Source of the DNA: Candidatus Woesearchaeota archaeon
Lineage (GTDB): Archaea > Nanobdellota > Nanobdellia > Pacearchaeales > GW2011-AR1
Direction of reading: 5' to 3'
DNA length: 64,000 nt
Assembly: GCA_964576755.1 (NCBI GenBank)
Contig: CAZNUV010000004.1
Span: forward strand, 740-64,739
The position numbers and the translations under genes were made by a program. Below, piece by piece: positions 43,044 through 62,434 of the stretch. The notes beneath the pieces are model-generated. The model saw only the letters and a list, made by a program, of their open reading frames with translations. It was not told the origin of the DNA and did no database searches. Position 1 is the stretch's first letter. The number at the start of each line of letters is the position of its first letter.

Positions 43044-43059
43044 AATAACTCCAGTTACC

Positions 43060-44804: not shown

Positions 44805-44972
44805 TTTCTGAAATTATCAAGAACTCTTTCTCCCTTTTGGGGCTAGAAATTTAAGAAAATCAGAGTTCTTAAACTTTATTGTTTTTTGATAAATACGTGA
44901 ACCTAACTCTTATATAATTGTGAAGTTATATATTCTTAGCTCTAAGGGAAAAAGTGGTTTTAGTAAAGTACC

Positions 44973-45251
44973 ATGAAACAAACACCTATAAAAAATAGTC
45001 CTCTTCTTCCAAGAAGAATAATCAATGTAAAAGGAAAAGTCCATTATAGTGAGAGTAATCAGGCTTGGAACACTATTAAACTAAAAACAGAATTTCTTAA
45101 TGAATTTCAACAATTAAAAGAAAAAAGATCCAAGTTTTCTTATGAAATGTTATTTGGAAGAACTGAAGAAGAAATGGTTGAAGCTATAAAGAAAATTATA
45201 AAAGATAAAAATTTGATGCCGATTTTGATGTTTTTGTATAAGGATGGGTAA
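44973..45251 (+). CDS. Hypothetical protein
   Basis: 92-aa ORF just upstream of the next gene. Confidence 0.4.
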   Translation: MKQTPIKNSPLLPRRIINVKGKVHYSESNQAWNTIKLKTEFLNEFQQLKEKRSKFSYEMLFGRTEEEMVEAIKKIIKDKNLMPILMFLYKDG

Positions 45252-45281
45252 AATTTTAAACCTTAAATCTTATTGAGAGGT

Positions 45282-46001: not shown

Positions 46002-46007
46002 AAATTA

Positions 46008-46673: not shown

Positions 46674-46718
46674 TTTCTTATATTTTATATTTATCCAAAC
46701 TTATAAATTTTGTGTTTT

Positions 46719-50111: not shown

Positions 50112-50112
50112 C

Positions 50113-52632
50113 TTATAAGGGTAAACCAGTCAAATTTAATTTAGCACTTGTAACGTTAGCATTTTTTTTAATCTTTATATAAACAGTTTGATTTCCTGTT
50201 TGATTATACTCAAGTGTTTCTTCTGCATTTCCATCTGAAAAAGTATTAATTAAACCAGGAACAGTAACAGAAAAAGAAAATGGTCCATTCCAGGCCCAAC
50301 TCCAATGGGAATCATTGTCATAAACAAGATAGTTCCAAATATAATTCCCTATACTAATATTATTTATTGTTTTTGTTGTTGAATTGTTTGGTCCAGTTAT
50401 TGTTTTAGTTCCATTTGCTAAAAATGTTCCGTTTATATTACTATAAAATGTAATATTGGCTAAATTAACATTGTCTTCTGCAGTACAATTAAAAGTTATA
50501 TTTCCCGTATCGCTTACATAATTATTTGTAGGAAAAAGAAGGGTTGCATTTGGATAATCTCCACAAACATTACTTTCATCAATTATATTGTTACAGTTAT
50601 TATCTAAACCATCACAAGTTTCATTTACTGGCTCGATATAATTTCCGGTACAATTTCCCCATTGTCCTATAGTGCAGGTTTGTGTTCCTTTGATACATTC
50701 TCCAACATCGGTCCCACATTCTTGAGTTAGATTATTATCTACCTCCCCATTACAATCATCATCAATGTTATTGCAGGTCTCGTTAACCGCATTTCCAGAT
50801 GTAGAACATGCCCCCCAGCTTCCTGCAGTACAAGTTCTTATTCCTCCGGCACAAATGCCTGTTCCACAACCCTCGCTGAAATTATCTATAATCCCATCAC
50901 AGTTATCATCTTGATTATTACAAGTTTCTAAACTTGGTGAACAACAATCACCGTCAGCCATACAAACAGAACCCCCGGCAGTATCACAACAATACATATT
51001 CTCTGGATCTCTGTCCCCATATTCTTCTGCACAACATAATTCTCCAGTATCACAATGCCAACAATCGCCGTCAGAAGTATGGCAGTCATAAGGATATTCT
51101 CCCCCACACACATCACAATCTCCAGTATTTGTATCACAATAAGCTCCATCCTCATGGCAACACCATTCTGGATCCCCACTATCTGGGCAACAGATAGAAT
51201 AATCATCATCTCCTAAGGTACAATGCCAACATTGATCATTACATGCCCAAGGGTAACCTGGATCTTCACAATAAACATCTCCAGCACATTCACCATACTC
51301 ACAAATGCCAGAAGTACATTCTTGTTTTTCTATAGGGCCGGTATCATACCCACAGTATGAGGATTCTGTTCCAGGATTATAACAAGTATATTCCTTCCAG
51401 TACTGCCATACGTCTCCTCCAGAACAATAAGGGCTACCCTCCCATCCACTATCACCACAATCTCCATCTCCAGAGCAAGTTATAGCACCATAACAGTTGT
51501 TGGTTGATTCATCACATCCATATTGGCAAGTTTCTTCATAAGTATTTTGAACCCATCCAGTATTTTCTTGGTCATTAGTACAATCTCCCTCCATTGGCCA
51601 CTCACTAGAACATTTGTAAGCAGTGTACCATTTGTGCTTAAATCTATAATCTCCATTACAGTAATAAGACCAATCACTTTCCCAGTTTATATCAATACAA
51701 TCATACTGACAGGGATAATAAGCACAATAAATTGGGTAACTGGGGGTAGGCGTTGTACAAGCAATTGAGATACCAGCACCCGCACCTGCAAGACAAGTTA
51801 AACAGAAACCACAAGAGGTTGGTTCTAAAAGAGTGGTGCAGGGTCTACAGAGAGTTCCACATAGAATGGGGAGAAGGGGATCTGATGCTAAAGCATATTC
51901 TATTCCATAGACTACACATCGAATCCAGGTACAACTTCCATGACCCCATACAGAAACAATTTCATTTTTGTTTAAATTTATTGATCCTCCACTTTCATTA
52001 TCCAAATCAGATATTACAAGGATTACTTCTCCTTCTTTTTCTTCTAATTTCATTAAAAACGGTTTTATTATGTTCTCTGTTGAACTAGTAGGATCTGGAC
52101 TTACTAAAGAAATTAATTCACCATCCTTCGAAGAAAATAAAGATATAATTCCTTTTGACCCATCTTCATATTCTACTTTGATAACTTGTTCTACAGAATC
52201 ATATCCTCTTTCAGTTACATGTTCATAACCTTTTTTATAATCTCTATTTTCTCTTAAAATTTGAGAGATTTCATTCTCTCCTAATTCTTTCTGATGCAAC
52301 ATTTTTGGATAATTCATTTTTTCCAAATTGTTTGAATCCTTTATTTTCTCTTTTTTAATTTTATTGTTTATCTCTAAGGTAAATGTATTTTCTAGGCTTG
52401 GAGATACTATTGGAGGAATTTTTTCAAAAAAGAATTTATTTTTTCCTGAGAAGAAGTCTGAGTTTAATGCTCCTGAACAAGCCATTTCTTGCGATTTTTT
52501 TGCTAAAGAAGATGAAATAACATTCTCTGAATTATCTGGATTCTCTAAAACAGAAGAACTAATTGGAATAGTCAAAAATAAAAAGATTGTTAGAAAAAAG
52601 GTTATATTTTTTAAGTAAGGTCTTCTCTTCAT
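50113..52632 (-). CDS. Exported, extremely Cys-rich surface protein (839 aa)
   Basis: Signal peptide, a central region with dense Cys, three C-x3-D-x-x-C-(D/N)-x-x-(I/V)-D-(N/E) repeats, and a C-terminal Ig-like module homologous to one in the 1130-aa protein. Its stop is 1 nt from the next start. Confidence 0.7.
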   Translation of the reverse strand: MKRRPYLKNITFFLTIFLFLTIPISSSVLENPDNSENVISSSLAKKSQEMACSGALNSDFFSGKNKFFFEKIPPIVSPSLENTFTLEINNKIKKEKIKDSNNLEKMNYPKMLHQKELGENEISQILRENRDYKKGYEHVTERGYDSVEQVIKVEYEDGSKGIISLFSSKDGELISLVSPDPTSSTENIIKPFLMKLEEKEGEVILVISDLDNESGGSINLNKNEIVSVWGHGSCTWIRCVVYGIEYALASDPLLPILCGTLCRPCTTLLEPTSCGFCLTCLAGAGAGISIACTTPTPSYPIYCAYYPCQYDCIDINWESDWSYYCNGDYRFKHKWYTAYKCSSEWPMEGDCTNDQENTGWVQNTYEETCQYGCDESTNNCYGAITCSGDGDCGDSGWEGSPYCSGGDVWQYWKEYTCYNPGTESSYCGYDTGPIEKQECTSGICEYGECAGDVYCEDPGYPWACNDQCWHCTLGDDDYSICCPDSGDPEWCCHEDGAYCDTNTGDCDVCGGEYPYDCHTSDGDCWHCDTGELCCAEEYGDRDPENMYCCDTAGGSVCMADGDCCSPSLETCNNQDDNCDGIIDNFSEGCGTGICAGGIRTCTAGSWGACSTSGNAVNETCNNIDDDCNGEVDNNLTQECGTDVGECIKGTQTCTIGQWGNCTGNYIEPVNETCDGLDNNCNNIIDESNVCGDYPNATLLFPTNNYVSDTGNITFNCTAEDNVNLANITFYSNINGTFLANGTKTITGPNNSTTKTINNISIGNYIWNYLVYDNDSHWSWAWNGPFSFSVTVPGLINTFSDGNAEETLEYNQTGNQTVYIKIKKNANVTSAKLNLTGLPL

Positions 52633-52746
52633 TTTTACCTCTTTTTTAATATGAAGAGCTACATTAAAAAACTTTCTATTATTAAGAGTGTTAACAATTA
52701 ATGAATTATTCTATAAGTTTTTAAACTTTCTTTTATATAGATAATT

Positions 52747-53265
52747 ATGGTTAAGATCAGACAATTTTTACCAGGATTTCTTTTGTTGATTTTTGGAATC
52801 TTAATTTTCTTAATAGGATATTCTAGGGTGGGAACGGTTTTAATTTTATTAAGTTTTCTCATATTATTTTCAAAAATTTATGAATTAAACAAAGGAATTA
52901 AAATTTATTCTAAAAGATGGGTTGACCTATATTTTATAATAATTTTTGTGGGATTCATTCTTAGCATTCTTATTCAGCATAAATTATTTAATAGGCAAAT
53001 TTCTTTTTTAGAGATAATTCTAGGATCAATTCTTTTATTAGCGCTCTACTTGGTATCTCGATTTGCTTCCTTAAATTTAGAAAAAAAGAAACTAAAAATA
53101 ACCGCCTCTTTTTTAGGGGGATATTGTCTTATTGTTATTGGTTTAGTGTTTACTATCTTATTTTTTGTTTTTAAAAATCCTTATCTAATTTTTAATTTTA
53201 TTAGTATCTCTTTTATTATAGTGGGGGCCATTCTTATTTTTCTTAACTACCTTAGAAAGAAATAA
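52747..53265 (+). CDS. Polytopic membrane protein
   Basis: 172 aa with 5-6 TM segments. Confidence 0.5.
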   Translation: MVKIRQFLPGFLLLIFGILIFLIGYSRVGTVLILLSFLILFSKIYELNKGIKIYSKRWVDLYFIIIFVGFILSILIQHKLFNRQISFLEIILGSILLLALYLVSRFASLNLEKKKLKITASFLGGYCLIVIGLVFTILFFVFKNPYLIFNFISISFIIVGAILIFLNYLRKK

Positions 53266-53361
53266 CGTAGTTAACATAATCGGGAATACAAAACACTTAA
53301 AAAGCTCTAAATAGTACTAATTTTAAGCCCTAATGAGGAAAAGAGTTCTGATAAATTTAAG

Positions 53362-55785
53362 ATGAAAATGAAAAATAGTACGGGCCTAATGTTCCTAGGA
53401 ATCTTACTAGTTCTTTCTATCTCATTTGTTAGTGCGGGTATTTTCTTAAATAAAGACGGAACAATTGGAACTACAATCTCTGTAATCCCTGATGAAGATA
53501 ATTACTCTTTCAGAGACTACGGACTTGATGAAGATGGTAATGGATTATATGATTATCTGGTTATTGAATTTAATCTAACTGTTCCAGAGGCTGGAGAGTA
53601 TGAAACTTATGCAAGACTTGAAGATAATCTAGGTCATAGAGTCTACACTAGCGGGCATGAGGAAATTGATCTGGTTACTGGTGAAAATGTTATTTCTATT
53701 AAAATTAGTGGTATGGAAATTTATTCGGGTGGCATAAACGGAGAGTATAAACTAATAAGATTAGAAGTTGAAGGAGATGATAATAATTTTGAATTTGAAC
53801 TTTATGAAGATATTTATACAACTTCAGATTATGATTATACTGAATTTGAAAGACCTTCCTTACAGCTTACAGATTATTTTAATGAATACGTCCTAGATAA
53901 AAATAATGATGGACTGTATGATTATTTGATCATTGAAACAAAGATTAACATTACTCGAGCTTCAGAATATGAAATTGAGTGTGAGCTAGAGAATTCTGAA
54001 GGTAGATCTATCTCAGATTTTGAATATGAAGGATATTTTGAAGAAGGAATTCATACCATCAATTTCACATTTCCAGGAGAGGAAATTAATCAAAAGGGAT
54101 CTAACGGGCCTTTTATTTTGAAAGAAATACATGTAGAAAAAGAACCAGAAGATATAAGGTTTAAATATTTGAATGTGTACACTACATTAGATTATAATTA
54201 TTCTGAGTTTTCAAGTGAAGAAATAACAGAACCCATAATCTTCGAGGAAATAACAATAACTCCTGATGAAGTATATCCTGGTGAAACTGTTGAAATTGAA
54301 GTTATTGTAGAAAATAAATGGGCGGGAGATCAAGAAAAAGTCCTAATAACTGTTTTTAATGAAGCGCTAGGATTAAATCTCTCTGAAACAATTGAGCCCT
54401 TGGATGAAGGAGAGAATGAGAGAGTTTTATTTAACTTTACTATTCCTAGCGATGCTAATTCAAAAACATATCGTTTAAATTTTGAAGCATTCTGGGATTA
54501 TGATTCTGATAAAGATATTTATAATAAAGAACTAGAAGTTGAGGAAGTAGACTATCTTAAGATATTATCTGATTTAGCCGTTACAATTACTACGCCAGAG
54601 AATAATTCAACAGTAACTAAAGACTATGTTTGGTTAAGAGTTGATTCTAATGGAACTGCAATTTGTGAGTACGCTTTTGGAATGGGAATGACATTTTCTG
54701 CACCCAATTGTTCTGAAGGCGAAGCTTGTGGTCCTGGTGGTGGGGGTGGAGGGGTTTCAGTACTAAAAGAAATGGACATAACTGGAGGGTCTGAACACAT
54801 GCACCTTATTGAAGGATTAAGAAACACGATTAATAATGAAACCTATCATGAGTGGTATTCTATATATGTTTCTTGCAAAAATGAAGATGGTGAAAAAGAT
54901 TCCGCAAAAACAACCTTTTATGTTGATATAAACAATGAAATTCCTCCTGAAGTAGATATTTCTGCACGATTAGATTCTGTTGCCCGTGCTGGAGAGGATA
55001 TGGTTATTGGAGTAACAGTTAAAAATATAGGGACAAAAACAGAAGAATTTGAATTAGGGGTTGGAGGAGATTGGGAAAATTTTGCATCAGAATTTAATTA
55101 TAATGAAGATACAATTCAGTTAGATCCCTGGGAGTTTAAAGAGGTATTCTTAACTTTTAAGGTAAATGAAGATGGTGCTGGACTTCAAGAATTTTCTATT
55201 TTAATTAGCTTTAATGGAACTTTAATAGAAGAACAAAATATTCAAGTAACCATTGATCCGCCATTAGACACAACAGGCCCAGTAATAACCCTCTTAGGCC
55301 CCTCAGATGGATACACAAAGAAGACAAGAAGTTCTTCTTATGAAATTGATTTTAGATATAGTGTGTGGGATGAATCAGGGGTAGATACGTGTATTTTGTT
55401 TATTGATGGAAAGATTGAGGGATTAGAAATAGGCATTCAAAAGAGCACTGAATATGTTTTTTCAGAAGATCTTGACAGGGATGATTATGAATGGCATATA
55501 GAGTGTGTAGATTCTTATGAAAATAAGGGTGTTTCAGAAACAAGAGACTTAGAAATAAAAAAGAAATCTTCTTCAAGTAGTTCAAGTTCTAGTTCAAAAA
55601 CTAAAGATTATCCAGTAATAGTTCCTGTTGTTACAACAACTGAGCCAGATCCAGAAGTTGTTATTAATCTTAATCCCTTGCTTTCTCCTCCTTTAGAAGG
55701 AGCTATTAGTTTGAATTCTTCTGCACAAAAATCCGAAGGATTTTTTAGTGGGCTCGGCAGGTTTTGGAGAAGGTTGTTTGGTTAG
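53362..55785 (+). CDS. Exported multi-domain surface protein (807 aa) with CARDB-like modules
   Basis: Signal peptide. Internal duplication (..DGNGLYDYLVIEFNLTVPEAGEYE.. and ..NNDGLYDYLIIETKINITRASEYE..). CARDB-like ..VYPGETVEIEVIVENKW... G6 and S10 runs. Confidence 0.65.
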   Translation: MKMKNSTGLMFLGILLVLSISFVSAGIFLNKDGTIGTTISVIPDEDNYSFRDYGLDEDGNGLYDYLVIEFNLTVPEAGEYETYARLEDNLGHRVYTSGHEEIDLVTGENVISIKISGMEIYSGGINGEYKLIRLEVEGDDNNFEFELYEDIYTTSDYDYTEFERPSLQLTDYFNEYVLDKNNDGLYDYLIIETKINITRASEYEIECELENSEGRSISDFEYEGYFEEGIHTINFTFPGEEINQKGSNGPFILKEIHVEKEPEDIRFKYLNVYTTLDYNYSEFSSEEITEPIIFEEITITPDEVYPGETVEIEVIVENKWAGDQEKVLITVFNEALGLNLSETIEPLDEGENERVLFNFTIPSDANSKTYRLNFEAFWDYDSDKDIYNKELEVEEVDYLKILSDLAVTITTPENNSTVTKDYVWLRVDSNGTAICEYAFGMGMTFSAPNCSEGEACGPGGGGGGVSVLKEMDITGGSEHMHLIEGLRNTINNETYHEWYSIYVSCKNEDGEKDSAKTTFYVDINNEIPPEVDISARLDSVARAGEDMVIGVTVKNIGTKTEEFELGVGGDWENFASEFNYNEDTIQLDPWEFKEVFLTFKVNEDGAGLQEFSILISFNGTLIEEQNIQVTIDPPLDTTGPVITLLGPSDGYTKKTRSSSYEIDFRYSVWDESGVDTCILFIDGKIEGLEIGIQKSTEYVFSEDLDRDDYEWHIECVDSYENKGVSETRDLEIKKKSSSSSSSSSSKTKDYPVIVPVVTTTEPDPEVVINLNPLLSPPLEGAISLNSSAQKSEGFFSGLGRFWRRLFG

Positions 55786-55926
55786 ATTATTATATCTACT
55801 AACTAAATTTAGTTAAGGCCATTCATTACAGTCCATCTCTTCCCAATCAATATTGTTTTATGTTTCATTTTAGTTTATATAATTAACACTATAAGAGAAT
55901 ATAAAAAATTAACCTTTCCAATCTAT

Positions 55927-55984
55927 CCACTCAATCTCGACAATCCTTAAAAAGTCAAACCATCGCACACACATCGATGGGAAA
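55927..55984 (+). repeat. 58-bp repeat, copy 1 (TATA-like box plus start of a 30-codon mini-ORF)
   Basis: CCACTCAATCTCGACAATCCTTAAAAAGTCAAACCATCGCACACACATCGATGGGAAA. About 45/58 identical to 59343-59400. Confidence 0.65.
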
Positions 55985-56086
55985 TCCTGAATGGGTAACT
56001 AAACTTTTAGAATTAAAAAAGCAGGCTGAAATAGATAAGAAAGCGGAGAAATCTAATAATGATAACTAAACTAAAAGAAAAAGGAT

Positions 56087-56109
56087 CCCAGCACCCATGA
56101 AAACCCGAC
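56087..56109 (+). repeat. Arm site, right end of the element (inverted copy of 29347-29369)
   Basis: CCCAGCACCCATGAAAACCCGAC versus the reverse complement CCCAGCACCCATCAAATGCCGAC. Confidence 0.7.
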
Positions 56110-56124
56110 ACAGTCCAGTAGGTT

Positions 56125-56161
56125 CGGTTGGGGCGTACGGACAAAGTGTCCCATTTCATGG
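56125..56161 (+). repeat. att core copy B plus downstream arm
   Basis: CGGTTGGGGCG followed by TACGGACAAAGTGTCCCATTTCATGG. Flanked by CCATGAAA (56095-56102) and TTTCATGG (56154-56161). Confidence 0.75.
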
Positions 56162-56204
56162 TTTTTTTCTAAAAGTTTTTAAACTAATAATTGATTTAAT
56201 AAAT

Positions 56205-56645
56205 ATGATAAAGCCTATGAAAATCGTTAAGCCCCATTTATTAGAAATTATTAAGTTAGAAAGAACAGAACAGGGATTATTTCTTCCAAACTCTCCTAAA
56301 AAAGAAACTCTCACAATAGAATCAGCAGTAATTAATTCAGTAGAAATAAATGATATAAAAGATTATTTAGATGCAAATTATGCTAGAAGAAACTTTCCAT
56401 TTGGAATGATTTTAAATCTAAGAGGAAAGAAAATTCCATTTATTACAGAATTTAGAATACCTCATCCAGAAGATATGGTTTACTTTTTAAAATTAGCAGA
56501 ATCGAGATGGCAATTAATAAATGATGGGGATTGGAGAGGATTAAAAAAACAAAAAATAAATTTGCATTATATACCTTCTAATCAGGTTCCAACATATGTT
56601 CCTTCTAAAAATGTTTATGGAATTACTTTCTTAGATAAGCTATAG
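56205..56645 (+). CDS. Hypothetical protein
   Basis: Track ORF 56097-56645 begins inside the att repeat. The ATG at 56205 downstream of TTTTTAAAC is the more plausible start. Confidence 0.4.
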   Translation: MIKPMKIVKPHLLEIIKLERTEQGLFLPNSPKKETLTIESAVINSVEINDIKDYLDANYARRNFPFGMILNLRGKKIPFITEFRIPHPEDMVYFLKLAESRWQLINDGDWRGLKKQKINLHYIPSNQVPTYVPSKNVYGITFLDKL

Positions 56646-56695
56646 GAAACTAGTCCCTTACTTATCCCACACTTCTCCAGTTAGCGGTTAGATGT

Positions 56696-57454
56696 CTATT
56701 GCTTCTTAGCAGATTTCCACATTTCTTCAAAAAAACTTCCATAAGAATCTCTGACTTCCCTACTATCTATTACCACAATTTTAATAGGATTTGTCTTCCA
56801 AATAACAATTACAACTTTATTTCCATAAATCCATGTTGATGTCTCACTTAGATATTTCCAAGATAGATATTTTACATCTCCGACAACTATCTTCTTAGTA
56901 GGATCATTTTTACTTGGATCTGTTGAATTTAAAATTACCCTGCATTTCACCTTCATATTCTTCTTTAACTCTTGTGTCTGAACATAGTACTCCTTGCCGA
57001 AATGCCTTATCATCTCACCTCCCTGACCCATAAAAAGATACTCTTTTTTAGTTAAATAAGAATAATCATAAAGATCTTTAAAGAACGACTTAAACCCTGC
57101 ATCACCTATTAAAATTTTAATATTTGGCTTTTCCAAGTATTCTCTCATGCCTTTAATTTCCTTAATCTCTTTTAAACTCTTGTCTAGTTTATCTAGCCTC
57201 TGTTTTTCTTGTTTTATTTTTTCATTAAAAACATTCAAATCAGTTAAGCAGTAATAACCTTTTCCTTCTTTCTGTATAAAACTTAAAAATCCCTTAGCAC
57301 ATAATTTTTGAAGAGAATTGTAGACCGTTCCCCTATGAAGGGTTGTTCTTTCTATTATTTGACCAATTTTAGACTCCTTAAGTAGAAGAATCTCCTTGTA
57401 AATTTTTGCTTCTGTAGGGGTCATCCCAAAGTTAGTAAGAAGATCATTGTCCAT
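56696..57454 (-). CDS. TrmB-family transcriptional regulator
   Basis: ..FGMTPTEAKIYKEILLLKESKIGQIIERTTLHRGTVYNSLQKLCAKGFLS.. is a winged HTH of TrmB type. The internal ATG at 57454 lies about 25-30 nt from ATATATTTTTATAC and is preferred over 57505. Confidence 0.7.
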   Translation of the reverse strand: MDNDLLTNFGMTPTEAKIYKEILLLKESKIGQIIERTTLHRGTVYNSLQKLCAKGFLSFIQKEGKGYYCLTDLNVFNEKIKQEKQRLDKLDKSLKEIKEIKGMREYLEKPNIKILIGDAGFKSFFKDLYDYSYLTKKEYLFMGQGGEMIRHFGKEYYVQTQELKKNMKVKCRVILNSTDPSKNDPTKKIVVGDVKYLSWKYLSETSTWIYGNKVVIVIWKTNPIKIVVIDSREVRDSYGSFFEEMWKSAKKQ

Positions 57455-57607
57455 GATAACCCATATTTCTAGAGTATAAAAATATATCTTTTTTGTCGCC
57501 GTCATTTACGGTAGCCTTTGTTTAAATAAAAAATAATTTAATAGAATGGTATGGTAAAAATAAATACTAAGGAAAACAATTAAAATTAAATTTGGAAAAT
57601 AGAAAAA

Positions 57608-58297
57608 ATGAATCTAAAAAAACAAAATAAAGTTAAAATTGAGCTTTCTACTATAGATACTCCATTTACAAAAGATACCCAATATGATATAATCGGTTTG
57701 TTCTTAGCAATAGTTGTAGGTATAACTAGCTTTTACATTTCAAGACCAGAAGGAATTCTAGAATGGTCTCTTAAATTGTTAGAATTCTTAGGTATACTAT
57801 TTGCAGGATGGGCCATTGGATTAATGTTAAACAAGTTTGATCAAAATAGGATCAGTCAAAAAGAAAAACAGATTCTAGAAGAAAGAGCAAAATCTCATCA
57901 TTTAAGTTTAAATAAATATTTATCTAAAACATTAGAAGATATTACAAAACCAATAAGAAAGTGGGCAGATAAGAATAAAATAGAGTATAATTACTTAACA
58001 TATAGTAATTATAAACATACCTTAGATTTCCATAACTTTCCAATAGATTATATTGATTTTCAGGTTATTGATTACCATCTAGAGTTTATAATTAGGATGC
58101 ATAATTCAGAATATATTAAAAGAATATTAAAATATCTTCTTAATTCAGAGCTTAAATTAGTTCTAACTTTAGATAATTATCATTTCGGAAATCATCCTAA
58201 GGAAAAAATAGAACAAAGAGCAATTGAAAGAATAAAAAAAACACTTATAGAATCTATCCTAAACCCAAGTTATTCAATTAAAGCCCATTTATTTTAG
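57608..58297 (+). CDS. Membrane-anchored hypothetical protein
   Basis: 229 aa with two TM segments near the N-terminus. Confidence 0.4.
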   Translation: MNLKKQNKVKIELSTIDTPFTKDTQYDIIGLFLAIVVGITSFYISRPEGILEWSLKLLEFLGILFAGWAIGLMLNKFDQNRISQKEKQILEERAKSHHLSLNKYLSKTLEDITKPIRKWADKNKIEYNYLTYSNYKHTLDFHNFPIDYIDFQVIDYHLEFIIRMHNSEYIKRILKYLLNSELKLVLTLDNYHFGNHPKEKIEQRAIERIKKTLIESILNPSYSIKAHLF

Positions 58298-58373
58298 TTG
58301 CTTTTTTTAGGGGTGGACAGGTTTTTTTTCTGTAAGAGAAATATTTATAAACTAGTATATACCTAGTATATAC

Positions 58374-59150
58374 ATGGATAATCAAGAACAGATAACTAGG
58401 ATGGTCAAGTCATTTGGAAATGGAGCACATGTTTTTGTTCCGAAAGATTGGGCTGGAGAACAAATCCAAATAATAAAACCTGCAAAAAAGAGTTTAAGAG
58501 AAAGAATACTTTTAGAGTTAGACCCTTATTTAGACTCAATTGAGGGGGTTTATTTGTATGGATCTAATGCTCGAAGTGAACAAGTATTAGATTCTGACAT
58601 AGACTTATTTGTTATAACTAATAAAAAGATAAAAATTAACTCTAAGGGTTTTGAGATATTATGTTTAAAACAAGAGGATATAGAAAAAGCAGTAAAGATT
58701 GAGCCCTTGCTTATGTATTCTATTTTCTCAGAGTGCCAAACTATAATTAATTCTAAACTAATTGAAAGTATTAAGGCAAACTATGAACCTAACCTCAAAG
58801 ATTTTAAGATTTTTCTAGAAGACTCTAAAAGAATGATTAAAGTAAGTGAAGAATTTTTACAATCAGAAAACTCGGATTATGTTTCTGGAGATGCAGTAAT
58901 TTATTCAATTGTTCTTAGGCTTAGGGGGTTATTTATAATACACTCTTTATTAAAGGGGAAAAAATACTCAACTGATTTGTTCAAAAAGTGGGTTAAAAGT
59001 AATCTATCTCCAACTGATTTTGACTTAATTTATGGGGCCTATAGAAGCTCGAAGAATGAAAAAAAGTTTAAACAAAAAATAAAAGTGAAAGACCTAAGAT
59101 TATTACTAAACTTTTTAAACAAGGAGATTATAAAATTAATAGATGGTTAA
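58374..59150 (+). CDS. Nucleotidyltransferase (MNT-type) with N-terminal AbrB/DUF2080-like module
   Basis: ..KSFGNGAHVFVPKDWAGEQIQII.., then ..VYLYGSNARSEQVLDSDIDLFVI.. (the GS..DxD NTase motif). Confidence 0.7.
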   Translation: MDNQEQITRMVKSFGNGAHVFVPKDWAGEQIQIIKPAKKSLRERILLELDPYLDSIEGVYLYGSNARSEQVLDSDIDLFVITNKKIKINSKGFEILCLKQEDIEKAVKIEPLLMYSIFSECQTIINSKLIESIKANYEPNLKDFKIFLEDSKRMIKVSEEFLQSENSDYVSGDAVIYSIVLRLRGLFIIHSLLKGKKYSTDLFKKWVKSNLSPTDFDLIYGAYRSSKNEKKFKQKIKVKDLRLLLNFLNKEIIKLIDG

Positions 59151-59328
59151 AAGAGAAAAAAGACTTGAAAAGGGAATAGCATCTTTAGAAGAACAGAAAA
59201 AGATTCATGAGACAAAGAGAAAAAATGCTGAAGACCTTGGAGAAGAAGATTTAGTAAGATATTATGACAAGGAAATAAAGAAGTTTGAAAGTGAAAAGTT
59301 AAAGAAACAAGATAAACTACTCAAATAA
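59143..59328 (+). CDS. Small K/E-rich coiled-coil protein
   Basis: 61 aa. Overlaps the upstream gene by 8 nt. Confidence 0.35.
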   Translation: MVKREKRLEKGIASLEEQKKIHETKRKNAEDLGEEDLVRYYDKEIKKFESEKLKKQDKLLK

Positions 59329-59342
59329 TTTTATTTTCTTCC

Positions 59343-59400
59343 CCACCCAATCTCGACAATCCTTATAAATCCCTTTCATCGCACACAACACTGATGGAAA
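59343..59400 (+). repeat. 58-bp repeat, copy 2
   Basis: CCACCCAATCTCGACAATCCTTATAAATCCCTTTCATCGCACACAACACTGATGGAAA. Here the mini-ORF is only 8 codons. Confidence 0.65.
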
Positions 59401-59423
59401 AGGCAATTAAATTAATATGAAAA

Positions 59424-59801
59424 CTAAATAACTTTGATTAACTTTTTTATAATCTCTTTAATATAATTCTCCCTGTTTTTTAAGAATTCTAATGTTATTT
59501 GTTCTCCGTAATAAACAATGTCATTTCTTTTTACTCTCAGTTCATCAATCAGTGATACTTCTTTAGAGGTTAGAGATTTTATATTTTTTGCTGAAAATTC
59601 GATTAAGGATTTATGACTGAGTGTTTTGAAACCACTGGAATACATAAATGAAGTTAAAAGTTCTTTAATTATTTCATAATATTCTTCAAGAATTCTATAG
59701 GGCTCTTTTAATGAAGACATTGTAGAAAATCGATTTTCTGCCATCATCTTTAGGGCTTTTGCCCTTCTCTCATCCTTTGTTATTTTAAATATTTCTTCCA
59801 T
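59424..59801 (-). CDS. HEPN-domain protein (toxin-like partner of the NTase)
   Basis: 125 aa, helical, with ..ELRVKRNDIVYYG... Its ATG overlaps the stop of the upstream NTase gene by 1 nt. Confidence 0.6.
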   Translation of the reverse strand: MEEIFKITKDERRAKALKMMAENRFSTMSSLKEPYRILEEYYEIIKELLTSFMYSSGFKTLSHKSLIEFSAKNIKSLTSKEVSLIDELRVKRNDIVYYGEQITLEFLKNRENYIKEIIKKLIKVI

Positions 59802-60307
59802 TATCTTTCTCCAGATAAAATTGTACCCTGATTTACACTTTCAATTAAACTTTTATCTACTTGATCTTTAAAGATTAGATGAATCTTTCTATTTAAATAT
59901 TTTTCAAAATTCTTTGTATTAAACTTAAAAGTTTTTGAACCTATGAATAAATCTATATCAGAGGTTTCTATATCTTCTCCCTTATCATAGCTTCCAAAGA
60001 GAATTATTGATTTAGGATATTTTTCATTTAATTTTTCTATTATTTTAGAGGATTTAATTAGTATTAAATTTGCAATTTTCTTTTCAAAAATAAATTCAGG
60101 ATTCTCTCTAATGGCCTTATATCCTCTAAAGGGGTCTGATTCTACCTTTTGTATTAATCCTTCATTAATTAGGGTTTTAAGATGTTTTCTTACAGATGTT
60201 GGTGCTAGACTAATTTTCCTAGAAATCTCTTTAATAAAATGAACTTTTGTAGGTTCTATAAAAAATATTTCTGCTACTTTCCAAAGGCTACTTTTTTGTA
60301 TAATCAT
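59801..60307 (-). CDS. wHTH-nucleotidyltransferase (MNT-type antitoxin-like)
   Basis: ..ISLAPTSVRKHLKTLINEGLI.., then ..IILFGSYDKGEDIETSDIDLFIG... Confidence 0.75.
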   Translation of the reverse strand: MIIQKSSLWKVAEIFFIEPTKVHFIKEISRKISLAPTSVRKHLKTLINEGLIQKVESDPFRGYKAIRENPEFIFEKKIANLILIKSSKIIEKLNEKYPKSIILFGSYDKGEDIETSDIDLFIGSKTFKFNTKNFEKYLNRKIHLIFKDQVDKSLIESVNQGTILSGER

Positions 60308-60467
60308 ATATATTTTTGTATCCTTGGGTATATAAATGTTTCTAGTATGCCCTATGTTTCATTCTGTTACCCCTTAGTTGTCGACAAGATTTTTAAATAA
60401 AAGCCACCTAATAGAACAAAGCAAACACAAACGACATCCCTTTAGGATGCATGACTGGGGTCGTGGA

Positions 60468-60517
60468 CGGTTGGGGGCGTCCAGGACTTTTGTGGCTTTC
60501 ATGGGTGGACAGGTTTT
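60468..60517 (+). repeat. att core copy C (one extra G) plus downstream arm
   Basis: CGGTTGGGGGCG followed by TCCAGGACTTTTGTGGCTTTCATGGGTGGACAGGTTTT. The core sits in the loop of TGGACG/CGTCCA (60464-60483). Confidence 0.7.
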
Positions 60518-61084
60518 CAGATTAATTTCTAAAGATTTTTATAGTAACTTCATTTTATTTTGTTATGGGCGTAATCATTAAAACTGCAACATTGAATGAT
60601 TTAAAAAAAGTTCAAGAATTAAATCTTAAGCTCTTTGAAAAAGAGAAACAAGAATACGACCCTTTTTTAGACTTAAAAGGAGTTTTCAGTAAGAAGGGAA
60701 CAAAGTACTATAAGGATAAAATCTCTAAAGATAGCGATTGTGTTTTTGTCGCAGTTATTAATAATACCATTGTCGGTTATTTATGCGGGGGGTTAGCTAA
60801 AACAGGATCTTTCGGACGGCTGTCTAGCATTACTGTTGCGGAAATACAAACCTTTTTTGTTTTAGAAGAATTTAGGTCTTTGGGAATTGGTAAAAAGCTA
60901 TATGATGAGTTCATTAAATGGTGCAAGAAAAAAAATGTTGACAAAGCAAGAATAGATGTCCATTCCCAGAATAAATCCGCAATAAAATTTTATAAAAATA
61001 AAAACTTTAAGGATTATTATTCTACGTTAGAAATAGATTTATAGAAAATTTACAATAAACGCTCAAGGAACGTCGGTTGGGGCG
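60480..61084. mobile_element. att-bounded unit 3 (0.6 kb, single GNAT gene)
   Basis: Lies between att copies C and D. Confidence 0.5.
60565..61044 (+). CDS. GNAT-family N-acetyltransferase
   Basis: ..VGYLCGG.., and ..FFVLEEFRSLGIGKKLYDEFIKWCKKKN.. (the Q/R-x-x-G-x-G/A acetyl-CoA motif). 159 aa. Confidence 0.8.
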   Translation: MGVIIKTATLNDLKKVQELNLKLFEKEKQEYDPFLDLKGVFSKKGTKYYKDKISKDSDCVFVAVINNTIVGYLCGGLAKTGSFGRLSSITVAEIQTFFVLEEFRSLGIGKKLYDEFIKWCKKKNVDKARIDVHSQNKSAIKFYKNKNFKDYYSTLEIDL

Positions 61085-61116
61085 TACGGGACCTTTGTGA
61101 CTTTCATGGGTGGACG
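61074..61116 (+). repeat. att core copy D plus downstream arm
   Basis: CGGTTGGGGCG followed by TACGGGACCTTTGTGACTTTCATGGGTGGACG. It is enclosed by the 13-bp inverted repeat 61042-61054 / 61138-61150. Confidence 0.75.
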
Positions 61117-61185
61117 TTAGAAGTGTTAGGTATTTTGTGTAAATTTTCTAAAAAAGAATGATAGATATTTTGGAAACAAAGCGGT

Positions 61186-61692
61186 TTATTTTTCTAAAAT
61201 AGTCTCTGCTTTATTAATAAAAGAAATGGTTTTTTTTCTAAATGTTGTTATTTTTTCTTCATTAAATAAACTGTTTGTAGAATAATTTGCTTGATGCCTT
61301 TCTTGTTTTAGGTCTGTATAAAACTCTGCATCAGATTTATTTATTGATAATTCTTCAAGTGTTTCTAATTCTTCATAAGAAAAGTTAGAATAGTTTTTGA
61401 TTAGAAATAAAAGCGTAGCCAAATGATTTTTTGAGATGTACCCCTTTTTAGCTAGAAGAGCTAGGCAAGAATGATAAAGAGCATAATAAAGGCCCACAAT
61501 TGCCCAATCATTATAATTTTTATTTTTAATTAGTAGATCTACTAAATTTAGATTGTGTTTTGATTTTTCAAGATGAGCCTGAACCAATCCAGAAGAATGT
61601 TTAGACTTAATTAAGTTTCCTTTGTTCTCATGGAATTTTATCTCTTGATCTAAGAGAATTTTATTATCAAAATAATCTTTAATTTTTTTCAT
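61186..61692 (-). CDS. HEPN-domain protein
   Basis: 168 aa, helical, with ..DLKQERHQANYS... Overlaps the upstream NTase gene by 14 nt. Confidence 0.6.
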   Translation of the reverse strand: MKKIKDYFDNKILLDQEIKFHENKGNLIKSKHSSGLVQAHLEKSKHNLNLVDLLIKNKNYNDWAIVGLYYALYHSCLALLAKKGYISKNHLATLLFLIKNYSNFSYEELETLEELSINKSDAEFYTDLKQERHQANYSTNSLFNEEKITTFRKKTISFINKAETILEK

Positions 61693-62287
61693 TGTTTGTA
61701 TAGTACCTCAAGGTTCCAAATATTGGAAAACCGGTTTCTTTTGCTTGTAAAATTAAATGGTCTTTGGTTGTTTTAAAATTATCTAGGGTTACAAAGAGAA
61801 TGTTTAGTGGGTGGTTAGATTCAGAGTTTATTTTTTTTCTTAAATTTTCTATCTTTTTTTTGATTTCTTGTTCATATTGTCTTTGTAGTTCTTGATTTTC
61901 AAATTTATGCAAGACCACTAATAAATCAATGTCAGAGTCCTCTTTTTCCTGTTTTCTTGAAGAAGAACCAAAAAGAAGAACAAATTCTACCTCTGAAGGG
62001 AGATTTTTTAAGAAGTTTCTTAGGGGTGTTTTAACTTCCACATTTAAATTGTTTAATCTTTCTTTATCTAATAAACTAAAGATTAGAGGTTTGTTTATTG
62101 CTGAAATTCTGTAGTAAACATTTGAAGTTCTTTTATCTTCTTCTATTTGTTTAAATTTTAATAGTTTGTTTATGACATTTTGTATAGAACTATTGGACAA
62201 TTTAGTTAGATTTTTTATTTCTGTGAAGTATAACCATTCTTTTCCACTTTCATAGAATGCCTTGAATATCTTTTCTTTTGCTTCCAT
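61679..62287 (-). CDS. wHTH-nucleotidyltransferase (MNT-type)
   Basis: ..LSNSSIQNVINKLLKFKQI.., then ..FVLLFGSSSRKQEKEDSDIDLLVV... Confidence 0.75.
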   Translation of the reverse strand: MEAKEKIFKAFYESGKEWLYFTEIKNLTKLSNSSIQNVINKLLKFKQIEEDKRTSNVYYRISAINKPLIFSLLDKERLNNLNVEVKTPLRNFLKNLPSEVEFVLLFGSSSRKQEKEDSDIDLLVVLHKFENQELQRQYEQEIKKKIENLRKKINSESNHPLNILFVTLDNFKTTKDHLILQAKETGFPIFGTLRYYTNNEKN

Positions 62288-62319
62288 AATAAATCAATAT
62301 AACTCTTCTTTTTAAATCT

Positions 62320-62355
62320 TGCCATTTATTGGCAGAATATTGCCATTTATTGGCA
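62320..62355. promoter_or_regulatory. Two copies of the palindromic 15-mer TGCCATTTATTGGCA upstream of the NTase/HEPN operon
   Basis: Copies at 62320-62334 and 62341-62355, 21 bp centre to centre, just upstream of the TATA-like TTTAAAAA (minus strand) of the gene starting at 62287. Confidence 0.55.
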
Positions 62356-62401
62356 TTTTTAGTTTTATTGACACATTAATGATACACTCCCCTAGTCACA
62401 G

Positions 62402-62434
62402 CGGTTGGGGCGTACGGGACCTTTGTGATAGTCC
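62402..62434 (+). repeat. att core copy E plus flank
   Basis: CGGTTGGGGCG followed by TACGGGACCTTTGTGATAGTCC. Flanked by CTAGTCACA..TGTGATAG. Confidence 0.75.

What the first reader, a model, noticed from the sequence alone, without database searches (positions are those of the whole stretch)
56087..62434. Array of tRNA-Asp 3'-end copies delimiting short integrase-less cassettes (serial integration decay series or integron-like capture array)
The tRNA 3' end CGGTTGGGGCG recurs in the same orientation at 56125, 60468 (with one extra G), 61074 and 62402.
- Copies at 56125, 61074 and 62402 continue with TACGG(G)AC. Copies at 60468 and 61074 continue into TTTGTG(G/A)CTTTCATGGGTGGAC, and 56125 has the related GTGTCCCATTTCATGG. 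This family of downstream arms also resembles the arm beside the tRNA (GTCGGCATTTGATGGGTG).
- The intervals are 4.3 kb, 0.6 kb (one GNAT gene) and 1.3 kb (one HEPN/NTase pair). None encodes a recombinase.
- Each copy lies in its own local imperfect palindrome: CCATGAAA..TTTCATGG, TGGACG..CGTCCA, a 13-bp perfect inverted repeat at 61042-61054/61138-61150, and CTAGTCACA..TGTGATAG.

I see two readings. In the first, related elements integrated repeatedly into the same tRNA and then decayed to single cargo genes. In the second, the array captures cassettes and is served in trans by the integrase at 29425. The cassette content (toxin-antitoxin pairs, an acetyltransferase) is what bacterial integron cassettes typically carry. 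Either way, single-gene units bounded by a tRNA-derived site are unusual.
Basis: partly seen in the sequence, partly recalled or inferred. Interest (0 to 1): 0.78.

Follow-up and report, generated by a model that had tools for sequence, protein, structure and literature searches.

The report
Mobile-element pile-up at archaeal tRNA-Asp
The repeated tRNA-Asp ends are real: they mark where a large family of integrase-carrying mobile elements has inserted again and again behind one tRNA gene of a tiny (DPANN) archaeon, leaving one intact 27-kb element and a row of integrase-less leftovers, which is a known kind of genomic island and not an integron.

Summary
The 11-mer CGGTTGGGGCG, the 3' end of tRNA-Asp(GTC), recurs at 56125, 61074 and 62402, and at 60468 with an extra G that is polymorphic in the population.

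- **Host:** an AT-rich DPANN-type archaeon.
- **Intact element:** tRNA core to 56125 bounds a 26.8-kb element with a tyrosine integrase, restriction-modification genes, a type IV secretion pilin and a VirB4-like ATPase.
- **Remnant units:** the stretches behind it lack an integrase. Their flanks are homologous to the left and right ends of elements at the same core in at least 11 other DPANN arrays.
- **Ancestors:** elsewhere the same HEPN/nucleotidyltransferase pair sits in a 2.7-kb element with the integrase. Integrase stumps and a 144-bp gene-less unit show deletion.
- **Decay in the window:** arms are truncated at different points, one junction has lost its core, and right arms lack the distal motif.
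- **Best reading (0.7):** serial site-specific integration followed by deletion, as in accretion of conjugative elements with cis-mobilizable remnants.
- **Not an integron:** the integrase scores 18 bits against a 265-bit cutoff, there are no attC boxes or consistent hairpins, and gene orientation is mixed.
- **Open:** mobilisation in trans of intact-armed units elsewhere.

The parts
29264..29335 (+). tRNA-Asp(GTC) gene, the integration target. Its last 11 nt (29325-29335, CGGTTGGGGCG) are the shared att core.
   Evidence: ARAGORN; Rfam tRNA at 63.8 bits; 11-mer search.
29336..29424 (+). Left arm (class L-A) of the intact element E1. It holds TTTGATGGGTG at 29354-29364 and a terminal inverted repeat at 29348-29370. 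It also holds a promoter-like CAAATATACAGCATTTATACAATG upstream of the integrase.
   Evidence: The same arm precedes the integrase in L022, L024, L049 and L054.
29425..30603 (+). Tyrosine integrase of E1 (392 aa), apparently intact.
   Evidence: Pfam PF00589 at 4.9e-11. Residues R188, K216, R286, H287, W309 and Y317/Y318 are invariant among 8 family members. 2338 homologous clusters at E<=1e-20.
29336..56124 (.). E1, a 26.8-kb integrated element resembling an integrative conjugative element. It carries the integrase, Dam, N4/N6 and C5 methyltransferases, an Eco47II endonuclease, a DndB-like protein, a type IV secretion pilin (34504-34845), a VirB4/TraG-like ATPase (36036-39110) and giant ORFs (46719-52632).
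   Evidence: Pfam. Bounded by the direct 11-mer and by the inverted repeats GTCGGCATTTGATGGGTGCTGGG / CCCAGCACCCATGAAAACCCGAC.
55927..56124 (+). Right end (class R-A) of E1. It holds a promoter-like block at 55927-55987 (TCGACAATCCTTAAAAA) and an arm at 56058-56124 with CACCCATGAAA at 56092-56102.
   Evidence: Repeat D8. blastn to L040, L058, L047, L048, L024 and others at 76-87%. Motif geometry.
56125..56135 (+). Core copy c1, the attR of E1 and the left boundary of the remnant series.
   Evidence: A same-population contig (L076) carries a different pair of arms around this same core.
56136..58297 (.). Remnant U2a. It has a degenerate left arm (TACGGACAAAGTGTCCCATTTCATGG) and three ORFs: an unknown ORF at 56205-56645, a TrmB-type HTH protein at 56696-57505(-), and an unknown ORF at 57608-58297.
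   Evidence: Weak TrmB-like relatives lie next to sites in L069 and L058.
58298..58330 (+). Relic of a class L-B left arm that has lost its core (TTTTAGGGGTGGACAGGTTTT). It is a decayed junction inside the 4.3-kb interval.
   Evidence: 2 mismatches to the 14-mer. GGGTGGACAGGTTTT is 15/15 identical to the c2 arm. The L076 allele of the c1 arm has the same TTTTAGGGGTGGACAGGTTTTT.
58331..59423 (.). Remnant U2b. It holds a nucleotidyltransferase (58374-59150), a small ORF (59143-59328) and a second copy of the right-end promoter-like block (59343-59400).
   Evidence: Pfam; repeat D8 at 82%.
59424..60467 (.). Remnant U2c. It holds a 125-aa ORF with no Pfam hit that occupies the HEPN position (59424-59801, -) and a winged-HTH nucleotidyltransferase (59801-60307, -). 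It ends in a conserved right-end block of class R-d (60353-60467).
   Evidence: Pfam. The R-d block is 78-86% identical to blocks in L015, L021, L028, L034, L035, L040, L052, L060, L062 and L067.
60468..60479 (+). Core copy c2 (CGGTTGGGGGCG). The extra G is polymorphic.
60480..60510 (+). Class L-B left arm of unit U3, truncated at about +32 of a consensus of about 70 nt.
   Evidence: 95% to L016 and L068.
60565..61044 (+). GNAT acetyltransferase, the only gene of unit U3.
   Evidence: Pfam PF00583 at 3.6e-17.
61059..61073 (+). Short right-end remnant of U3 (class R-f, CGCTCAAGGAACGT). The distal CACCCATSAAA motif is missing.
   Evidence: shared with L033, L066 and L031@13104.
61074..61084 (+). 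Core copy c3.
61085..61146 (+). Class L-B left arm of unit U4, the best preserved arm in the window.
   Evidence: 81-94% identical over 46-75 nt to arms in about 20 loci.
61186..62287 (-). HEPN (61186-61692) and winged-HTH nucleotidyltransferase (61679-62287) toxin-antitoxin-type pair, the cargo of U4.
   Evidence: Pfam. 67-79% protein identity to pairs in L028/L067/L035, where the pair sits next to an integrase inside a 2.7-kb unit, and in L021.
62381..62401 (+). Core-proximal remnant of a class R-B right arm (ACACTCCCCTAGTCACAG). The distal motif is missing.
   Evidence: compare L020 ACACTCCTCCAGCCACGG.
62402..62412 (+). Core copy c4, the last one. No further core was found in the next 7 kb.
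62413..62428 (+). The first 16 nt of an L-B arm (TACGGGACCTTTGTGA), identical to the c3 arm, after which the sequence diverges. It is a truncated arm, not the native tRNA flank.
   Evidence: Native-looking tRNA-Asp flanks elsewhere differ (L044@2334).

Best explanation
The array is an integration hot spot that has been used repeatedly.

**Target and enzyme.** A large DPANN-wide family of tyrosine integrases recombines element attachment sites with the last 11 nt of tRNA-Asp(GTC). Each integration restores the tRNA and leaves a displaced copy of the 11-mer at the far end of the element.

**What the window holds.**
- One apparently complete 26.8-kb element (E1), resembling an integrative conjugative element, lies between the tRNA and c1.
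- Behind it lie the leftovers of at least five earlier insertions: U2a, U2b, U2c, U3 and U4. There may be a sixth, marked by the truncated arm after c4.

**How single-module units arise.** The ancestors were themselves small, an integrase plus one cargo module in 2.5-3.2 kb, as seen intact in other genomes. A single deletion of the integrase therefore yields a unit with one gene or one toxin-antitoxin pair, bounded by core copies.

**What survives.** The remaining cargo is of the addiction or defence type (HEPN/nucleotidyltransferase pairs, GNAT), which resists loss. The units fit the definition of cis-mobilizable elements: integration genes lost, att sites kept.

**Likely mobility.** Because all copies share the core, the E1 integrase could still recombine the tRNA core with c1 to c4. 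That would excise E1 alone or E1 together with its neighbours. U3 and U4 are probably not excisable on their own, because their right arms lack the distal arm motif.

**Shown and inferred.** Shown here: the repeats, their homology to element ends elsewhere, the integrase family, the truncations and the intermediates. Inferred: the order of events, the reason the cargo is retained, and any present-day recombination.
For: - **Repeat and target.** The core 11-mer occurs at the tRNA end and four more times, against 0.02 expected by chance.
- **E1 boundaries.** E1 is bounded by the tRNA core and c1, with 23-nt terminal inverted repeats and an integrase directly after attL.
- **Integrase.** The catalytic-type residues are invariant.
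- **Breadth of the family.** The same core with the same arm motifs lies at fixed distances (CACCCATSAAA at -33/-34, TTTSATGGGTG at +18/+19). It occurs in 54 non-redundant sites from Pace-, Woese- and Nanoarchaeota contigs. The integrase family has 2338 clusters.
- **Homology of the window's flanks.** Each flank belongs to a recurrent end class (R-A, R-d, R-f, R-B, L-B) at 76-95% identity, while the adjacent cargo is unrelated.
- **Small autonomous relatives.**
  - L028: integrase, HEPN and nucleotidyltransferase in 2.7 kb.
  - L047: integrase and Fic in 2.46 kb.
  - L021: 3.2 kb.
- **Shared cargo.** The window's HEPN/nucleotidyltransferase pair is 67-79% identical to those of L028 and L021.
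- **Deletion intermediates elsewhere.**
  - L040: L-A arm, 35-aa integrase stump, MazE/ParE pair and R-A arm in 0.9 kb.
  - L058: 77-aa stump.
  - L015: 34-aa stump plus GNAT.
  - L024/L047: a 144-bp unit with arms only.
- **Decay series in the window.** L-B arms are cut at about +50, +32 and +16 of a consensus of about 70 nt. One junction has lost its core. The R arms of U3 and U4 lack the distal motif.
- **Integrase debris.** An integrase C-terminal fragment lies at 30640-30846.
- **Precedent.** The three-step model of integration, decay to a cis-mobilizable element, and accretion is established for bacterial elements (PMC5704250). Tandem pile-ups with remnants at tRNA genes are described for tycheposons (bioRxiv 10.1101/2020.12.28.424599).
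Against: - **Tidiness.** The units are very compact, with almost no pseudogene debris. No integrase fragment is left in 56136-62402. That is tidier than random decay usually looks.
- **Order of preservation.** The best preserved cores and arms (c2-c4) lie farthest from the tRNA, and the decayed junctions lie nearer. This contradicts a simple 'newest next to the tRNA' push model and requires integration at distal core copies as well.
- **Intact-armed units elsewhere.** Integrase-less units with both arms complete recur in other genomes (L015, L020, L029). L-B arms are 85-95% conserved next to unrelated cargo. This is also what a family mobilised in trans would show.
- **Local variation.** The c1 junction is polymorphic within the population, and the variation is confined to the arms. 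That hints at ongoing recombination rather than a dead fossil.
Confidence: 0.7

Rival explanations
1. This is a cassette platform that works like an integron. The integrase-less units are non-autonomous cassettes whose junction (right arm, tRNA-derived core, left arm) is a dedicated recombination site. Family integrases such as the one at 29425 excise them as circles and insert them, in trans, at any core copy. The array is then a store of defence and addiction genes that can be reshuffled.
For: - Units with one gene or one toxin-antitoxin pair lie between core copies in at least 11 arrays from different DPANN genomes. The cargo includes Fic, a cytidine deaminase, MazE/ParE, GNAT and HEPN/nucleotidyltransferase pairs.
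- Some integrase-less units keep both arms complete: L015, L020/L044 and L029.
- L-B arms stay 85-95% identical across genomes while the DNA about 55 nt further in drops to about 31%, close to unrelated sequence.
- All arm classes share one core and one arm motif at a fixed distance, so one integrase could plausibly serve many units.
- The arms around c1 differ between strains that are otherwise about 100% identical. A Logan contig ends exactly at the end of the c1 core.
- The cargo types match those reported for bacterial and archaeal integron cassettes (PMC9668308).
Against: - The order and content of the window's units are identical in contigs from about 10 samples.
- The right arms of U3 and U4 lack the distal arm motif, and the left arms of c2 and c4 are truncated.
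- Integrase stumps inside homologous short units show that they descend from autonomous elements.
- Genes point both ways, and by eye they have their own TATA-like promoters.
- The integrase is 25.5 kb from the short units, and its HMM score rules out IntI.
- There are no attC boxes and no consistent hairpin.
Confidence: 0.2
2. This is local duplication. The downstream copies arose by tandem duplication or unequal crossing-over of one flank next to a single old integration, so they are not independent att sites.
For: c3 and c4 share an identical 27-mer, CGGTTGGGGCGTACGGGACCTTTGTGA. It carries two private variants (G at +4 and C at +9) that are not seen in arms of other genomes.
Against: - The c2 and c3 arms are more similar to arms in other genomes (95% and 92-94%) than to each other (89% over 37 nt).
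- The four upstream flanks belong to four different conserved right-end classes.
- The intervening genes are unrelated to each other.
Confidence: 0.04
3. These are functional RNA or regulatory repeats. On this view the copies are parts of small RNA genes, tRNA halves or terminators that happen to reuse the tRNA 3' end, not recombination scars.
For: - Promoter-like blocks (TCGACAA..TTAAAAA) lie 60-190 nt upstream of c1 and c2 and point towards the core. They are conserved in other loci.
- c2 folds better than shuffles, with z = -3.2.
Against: - ARAGORN and Rfam find no tRNA or other RNA family at any copy.
- Only 11 nt of the tRNA are repeated.
- Folding is not significant at c1 or c4.
- The copies coincide with element boundaries and integrases across many genomes.
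Confidence: 0.03

Closest known systems
Accretion of integrative conjugative or mobilizable elements with cis-mobilizable remnants at a tRNA 3' end (ICESt1-type elements of Streptococcus; review PMC5704250)
   Same: - A tyrosine integrase targets the 3' end of a gene.
- The resident element decays to a unit that has lost its integration genes but keeps its att sites.
- A further element then integrates at one of the att copies and builds a tandem array.
- The whole composite may be excised through the outer sites.
   Different: - The host is a DPANN archaeon.
- The remnants are far smaller (0.6-1.3 kb, one module).
- At least five end classes share one 11-nt core.
- Mobilisation has not been shown here.
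Tycheposons of Prochlorococcus (bioRxiv 10.1101/2020.12.28.424599)
   Same: - Cargo-carrying elements with tyrosine recombinases integrate at tRNA genes.
- Successive integrations push older elements into the island.
- Fragmented integrases and partial tRNAs mark older events.
   Different: - The integrase family and the host domain are unrelated.
- The repeat here is only 11 nt of the tRNA.
- The cargo is toxin-antitoxin or defence type rather than nutrient acquisition.
- One member carries conjugation-type genes.
Archaeal integrative elements with a non-partitioning (pNOB8-type) integrase, and 'gene capture' at tRNA genes in Sulfolobales
   Same: - The integrase gene stays intact beside attL.
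- The tRNA 3' end is duplicated as a direct repeat.
- Trapped remnants are bounded by tRNA fragments.
   Different: - This is a different integrase family. There was no sequence match to any solved structure, and the score against the archaeal XerA model is only 47 bits against a 220-bit cutoff.
- The core is much shorter.
- Arrays of many very small units are the rule here.
Integrons, including those reported in Archaea (PMC9668308)
   Same: - Arrays of short units with one gene or one toxin-antitoxin pair.
- The same kinds of cargo (toxin-antitoxin systems, acetyltransferases).
- A tyrosine recombinase is present in the locus.
   Different: - There is no IntI-type integrase.
- There are no attC sites (no R/L boxes, no conserved hairpin).
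- The crossover core lies in the middle of a double-stranded-type site derived from a tRNA.
- Gene orientation is mixed, and by eye the genes appear to have their own TATA-like promoters.
- The integrase belongs to a separate 27-kb element.

Membership tests
Tandem (accretion) array of tRNA-integrated tyrosine-recombinase elements with cis-mobilizable remnants | An intact target tRNA gene whose 3' end is repeated in direct orientation at element boundaries | tested here: met
   tRNA-Asp is intact. The 11-mer is repeated four more times on the + strand.
Tandem (accretion) array of tRNA-integrated tyrosine-recombinase elements with cis-mobilizable remnants | A tyrosine integrase encoded next to one att site of an element bounded by the repeats | tested here: met
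   The integrase at 29425-30603 starts 89 nt after the tRNA. Catalytic-type residues are invariant. E1 is bounded by the tRNA core and c1, with terminal inverted repeats.
Tandem (accretion) array of tRNA-integrated tyrosine-recombinase elements with cis-mobilizable remnants | The flanks of the further repeats are homologous to the ends of integrase-bearing elements of the same family | tested here: met
   The R-A, R-d, R-f, R-B and L-B classes are shared with 40+ sites in other DPANN contigs. Integrases or their stumps lie beside them.
Tandem (accretion) array of tRNA-integrated tyrosine-recombinase elements with cis-mobilizable remnants | Remnant units have lost the integration genes but retain attL and attR (definition in PMC5704250) | tested here: inconclusive
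   There is no recombinase in 56136-62402, and cores and left arms are kept. However, the right arms of U3 and U4 lack the distal motif, and one junction has no core.
Tandem (accretion) array of tRNA-integrated tyrosine-recombinase elements with cis-mobilizable remnants | Excision or integration by recombination between the repeats | not testable with these tools
   No reads are available. Contigs from about 10 samples are colinear. Only the arms at c1 and the G-run at c2 vary.
Integron | An IntI-type integrase | tested here: not met
   TIGR02249 integron integrase scores 18.2 bits against a cutoff of 265. The XerA model scores 47 against 220.
Integron | attC sites: paired R''/R' boxes (RYYYAAC...GTTRRRY) with L boxes, folding as an imperfect hairpin | tested here: not met
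   My own scan found no such pair in 55900-62600, and none in the window with L-box complementarity. Folding z-scores are inconsistent. The IntegronFinder model itself was not available.
Integron | intI adjacent to attI and to the first cassette; cassettes co-oriented and mostly without promoters | tested here: not met
   The integrase is 25.5 kb from c1 and lies inside a complete element. GNAT is on +, and both HEPN/nucleotidyltransferase pairs are on -.
Archaeal SSV-type integrative elements | The integrase gene is split by integration, because attP lies inside the gene (established knowledge) | tested here: not met
   The integrase ORF is intact and lies wholly beside attL.
Split or fragmented tRNA genes | Copies encode a tRNA half, or a tRNA-like fold with a leader | tested here: not met
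   Only 11 nt of the tRNA are shared. ARAGORN and Rfam find nothing at the copies.

The most novel reading that the evidence does not exclude
DPANN archaea may have a cassette system that is functionally analogous to integrons but built from different parts. A dedicated family of tyrosine integrases, at least 2300 clusters strong, would use the 11-nt 3' end of tRNA-Asp as a universal crossover core. Integrase-less units down to 144 bp, each carrying matched left and right arms around that core, would be excised and re-inserted in trans. The arrays behind tRNA-Asp would then be exchangeable stores of toxin-antitoxin, Fic, GNAT and similar genes, not graveyards.
Probability: 0.2. Interest if true: 0.7.

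Novelty: new member of a known kind. Interest (0 to 1): 0.42.

Why it matters
DPANN archaea have tiny genomes and depend on hosts, and how they gain and lose genes is poorly known.

- **A possible route of gene flux.** This locus and its relatives suggest that one tRNA gene serves as a common docking site for a very large, apparently undescribed integrase family. My literature searches found no description of it. Defence and addiction modules accumulate there in short units.
- **A candidate conjugative element.** One member carries a type IV secretion pilin and a VirB4-like ATPase, which makes it a candidate conjugative element in this group.
- **Annotation.** The conserved core and arm motifs give a simple handle for delimiting mobile DNA in DPANN genomes assembled from metagenomes. 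They may also help explain why assemblies break at these sites.
- **If trans-mobilisation were shown.** It would be an independent invention of cassette shuffling.

Tried and rejected
- **IMG/VR scan.** Scanning viral contigs with the core-plus-arm pattern gave no hits.
- **Solved structures.** A sequence search of the integrase against PDB chains found nothing at E<=0.01.
- **Empty site or circular E1 junction.** I looked up contigs carrying the flanking U32 peptidase, the integrase, the TrmB-like gene and the last E1 gene.
  - All contigs are colinear with the window.
  - Many break inside the tRNA or at c1 and c2.
  - The breaks inside the tRNA are probably due to tRNA sequence shared between co-occurring species (my inference, not tested).
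  - The breaks at c2 are best explained by the G-run polymorphism, and those at c1 by the arm polymorphism.
- **attC-like boxes.** My scan found none.
- **Single-strand folding.** Folding both strands of all four sites gave no consistent structure. The 13-bp inverted repeat around c3 occurs at the frequency expected by chance.
- **tRNA halves or tRNA-like RNAs.** I considered this for the copies and for the conserved block upstream of c2. I rejected it on ARAGORN and Rfam results and by inspection.
- **A single duplicated flank.** Rejected, because the arms match other genomes better than they match each other.
- **L-B/R-B units as a dedicated integrase-less class.** Weakened, because an integrase lies about 1.1 kb inside an R-B-type right end in L026, and an integrase stump lies in the L015 unit.
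- **Further cores beyond c4.** None in the next 7 kb.

Full report
**Host and setting.** The window is about 30% G+C. It encodes archaeal translation factors (aIF2-gamma at 9673-10920, aIF2/eIF5B at 13204-14946) and gyrase. The closest relatives of its mobile-element genes come from Pacearchaeota, Woesearchaeota and Nanoarchaeota genome bins. The host is therefore a DPANN-type archaeon. Only two tRNA genes are present. One is tRNA-Asp(GTC) at 29264-29335.

**The observation.**
- The last 11 nt of that tRNA, CGGTTGGGGCG, recur exactly at 56125, 61074 and 62402 on the same strand. Shuffles give 0.02 matches.
- At 60468 the copy has one extra G. A contig of the same population from another sample has the canonical core there.
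- The intervals hold no recombinase by Pfam or by tblastn with six family integrases.
- The cargo is as described: a GNAT gene at 60565-61044, and a HEPN plus nucleotidyltransferase pair at 61186-62287.
- The palindrome claim is weaker. Folding of both strands is significant at c2, borderline at c3 and absent at c1 and c4. One 13-bp perfect inverted repeat per window is expected by chance.

**The first interval is a complete element.**
- A 392-aa tyrosine integrase starts 89 nt after the tRNA.
- The sequence after the tRNA, GTCGGCATTTGATGGGTGCTGGG, is the inverted repeat of CCCAGCACCCATGAAAACCCGAC just before c1.
- Between them lie three DNA methyltransferases, an Eco47II-type endonuclease, a DndB-like protein, a type IV secretion pilin, a 1024-aa VirB4/TraG-like ATPase and two giant ORFs.
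- So tRNA core to c1 bounds a 26.8-kb element (E1) that resembles an integrative conjugative element.

**Relatives elsewhere.** I scanned one genome per prokaryotic species, and then JGI metagenomes, for the core followed at 10-25 nt by TTTSATGGGTG. This gave 16 and 39 stretches, almost all from DPANN archaea. They yield 54 non-redundant sites.
- **Geometry.** CACCCATSAAA starts 33-34 nt upstream of GGTTGGGGCG. Its inverted partner TTTSATGGGTG starts 18-19 nt downstream.
- **Upstream flanks.** They fall into a few recurrent classes: the tRNA body itself, and right-end classes I call R-A, R-B, R-d, R-e and R-f.
- **Downstream flanks.** They fall into left-end classes L-A, L-B and L-C.
- **Integrase family.** The integrases next to these sites are 55-88% identical to the one in the window; a more distant member beside the tRNA-Asp of L044 is 37%. 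The family has 2338 clusters at E<=1e-20.
- **L-A arms.** L-A arms are followed by an integrase or by a stump of 26-77 aa in most loci where enough downstream sequence is held.

**Every flank in the window belongs to one of these classes.**
- c1 is preceded by an R-A end: 56058-56124, plus a promoter-like block at 55927-55987.
- c2 is preceded by a 115-nt R-d block (60353-60467) that is 78-86% identical to blocks in ten other loci.
- c3 is preceded by an R-f remnant.
- c4 is preceded by the core-proximal 18-20 nt of an R-B end.
- c2 and c3 are followed by L-B arms. c4 is followed by only the first 16 nt of one.
- The consensus L-B arm is about 65-70 nt. In the window it is cut at about +50 (c3), +32 (c2) and +16 (c4).
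- A further L-B relic without a core lies at 58298-58330.
- A second copy of the right-end promoter-like block lies at 59343-59400.
- The 4.3-kb interval is therefore at least three remnants, and the whole series is five or six.

**Where single-module units come from.**
- Small autonomous elements exist in other genomes:
  - L028 has core, integrase, HEPN, nucleotidyltransferase, R-d and core in 2.7 kb.
  - L047 has an integrase plus a Fic gene in 2.46 kb.
  - L021 has an integrase plus one ORF in 3.2 kb.
- The window's HEPN/nucleotidyltransferase pair is 67-79% identical at protein level to those of L028 and L021.
- Intermediates are also present:
  - L040 has an L-A arm, a 35-aa integrase stump, a MazE/ParE pair and an R-A arm in 0.9 kb.
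  - L058 has a 77-aa stump.
  - L015 has a 34-aa stump plus a GNAT-like gene between complete L-B and R-B arms.
  - L024/L047 have a 144-bp unit made only of an L-A arm and an R-B arm.
- One deletion of the integrase from such a mini-element gives what the window shows.
- Of 19 units bounded by two cores in my sample, 4 carry an intact integrase and 15 do not.
- Their cargo is Fic, MazE/ParE, a cytidine deaminase, GNAT, HEPN/nucleotidyltransferase pairs and HTH regulators.

**Best explanation.** This matches the established model for bacterial integrated elements. That model has three steps: integration, decay to a cis-mobilizable element that keeps its att sites, and integration of further elements at one of the att copies (PMC5704250). 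It also matches the pile-ups described for tycheposons. I give it 0.7.
- Retention of toxin-antitoxin-type cargo is plausibly due to their addictive nature. This is an inference.
- The E1 integrase could still recombine the tRNA core with any downstream core. This too is an inference.

**Integron test.** The integron reading fails on every point I could test.
- The integrase scores 18 bits on the integron-integrase model, whose cutoff is 265.
- No R''/R' box pairs occur in the region, and no common hairpin.
- The genes point both ways.
- The integrase is part of E1, and its end lies 25.5 kb from c1.
- The paper on archaeal integrons describes classical attC sites and does not mention tRNA-derived sites (PMC9668308).
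- Contigs of the same population from about ten samples are colinear with the window over the whole array.

**What keeps the cassette reading alive (0.2).**
- Integrase-less units with both arms complete recur elsewhere.
- L-B arms are highly conserved next to unrelated cargo. Mean pairwise identity falls from about 0.65 in the arm to 0.31 some 55 nt further in.
- The best preserved sites in the window are the distal ones, which requires integration at distal cores.
- The c1 junction is polymorphic. In contig L076, 20 of 26 differences from the window over 6.8 kb lie in 56103-56176, replacing both arms around an unchanged core.
- A Logan contig ends exactly after ...CGGTTGGGGCGT.
- I could not resolve what the alternative continuations are.

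**Novelty and interest.** The kind of structure is known. The integrase family, its tRNA-Asp specificity across DPANN archaea, the very small autonomous members and the frequency of arrays appear undescribed in the literature I could search. I rate it a new member of a known kind, of moderate interest.

Noticed in passing
window 29336-56124: A 26.8-kb integrated element in a DPANN archaeon. It carries a type IV secretion pilin (34504-34845; PF18895/TrbC) and a 1024-aa VirB4/TraG-like ATPase with a PrgI-like N-terminus (36036-39110). It also carries several restriction-modification genes, a DndB-like protein, a B12-radical SAM enzyme and two giant ORFs (46719-52632). It is a candidate conjugative element. 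A search for DPANN with VirB4 and conjugation found only a Patescibacteria paper.
   Followed up: partly
window 30640-30846: A fragment of a second integrase (C-terminal about 62-69 aa, 59-65% identical to family members) lies right after the intact integrase gene. It is probably a scar of an earlier replacement or recombination between tandem elements.
   Followed up: no
window 56103-56176 versus L076 (ENA ERZ27248895 k141_78326): Two alleles of the c1 junction exist in one population. Both arms around the unchanged core are replaced, the right one by an L-B-type arm (TCCAGGACTTTTGTGACTTTTAGGGGTGGACAGG). The flanks on both sides stay about 100% identical. The mechanism is unexplained; gene conversion, site-specific exchange or a chimeric assembly are possible.
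   Followed up: partly
window 60468-60479; L077 1-20: The extra G in core copy c2 is polymorphic. Another sample has the canonical 11-mer. Three Logan contigs start at 60476, inside this run.
   Followed up: yes
window 55927-55987, 59343-59400 and 60381-60405; L015, L021, L030, L032, L040, L048, L058, L060: A conserved archaeal-promoter-like block (TCGACAA-N3-TTAWAAA) lies near element right ends and points towards the att core. In a circular A-type element it would read across the joined ends into the integrase gene, which suggests integrase expression that depends on excision. This is untested.
   Followed up: no
L024 7609-7753 and L047 14309-14453: A 144-bp unit between two cores consists only of an L-A arm, running up to the integrase start, fused to an R-B arm. 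It is a gene-less miniature derivative.
   Followed up: partly
L015 613-1500, L025 3799-4737, L031 11438-12394, L044 4226-5152, L047 3194-4135 and 5638-6648, L051 202-1197, L058 9309-10196: Genes for Fic-type proteins of about 300 aa (Fic/DOC domain confirmed by Pfam for the L031, L051 and L058 genes; the others assigned by similar N-termini) are the most frequent cargo next to these att sites. Each is often the only gene of a unit.
   Followed up: partly
L044 2334(-) versus 5418-9928(+): In one genome a tRNA-Asp gene with its own, more distant integrase (37% identity) lies in inverted orientation about 3 kb from a 4.5-kb unit bounded by cores. Arrays are therefore not always contiguous or co-oriented with the tRNA.
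   Followed up: no
window 29277-29309, 56136-56205 and 60476-60504, in contigs L010, L011, L013, L014, L070-L074, L078, L080 and L082: Short-read assemblies of this population break repeatedly inside the tRNA and at c1 and c2. The att sites and the tRNA are therefore systematic causes of contig ends in DPANN genome bins.
   Followed up: partly
window 57608-58297: A 229-aa ORF in the first remnant has weak matches to the mobilisation accessory proteins NikA and MbpA (E 0.002-0.006, below the family cutoffs).
   Followed up: no
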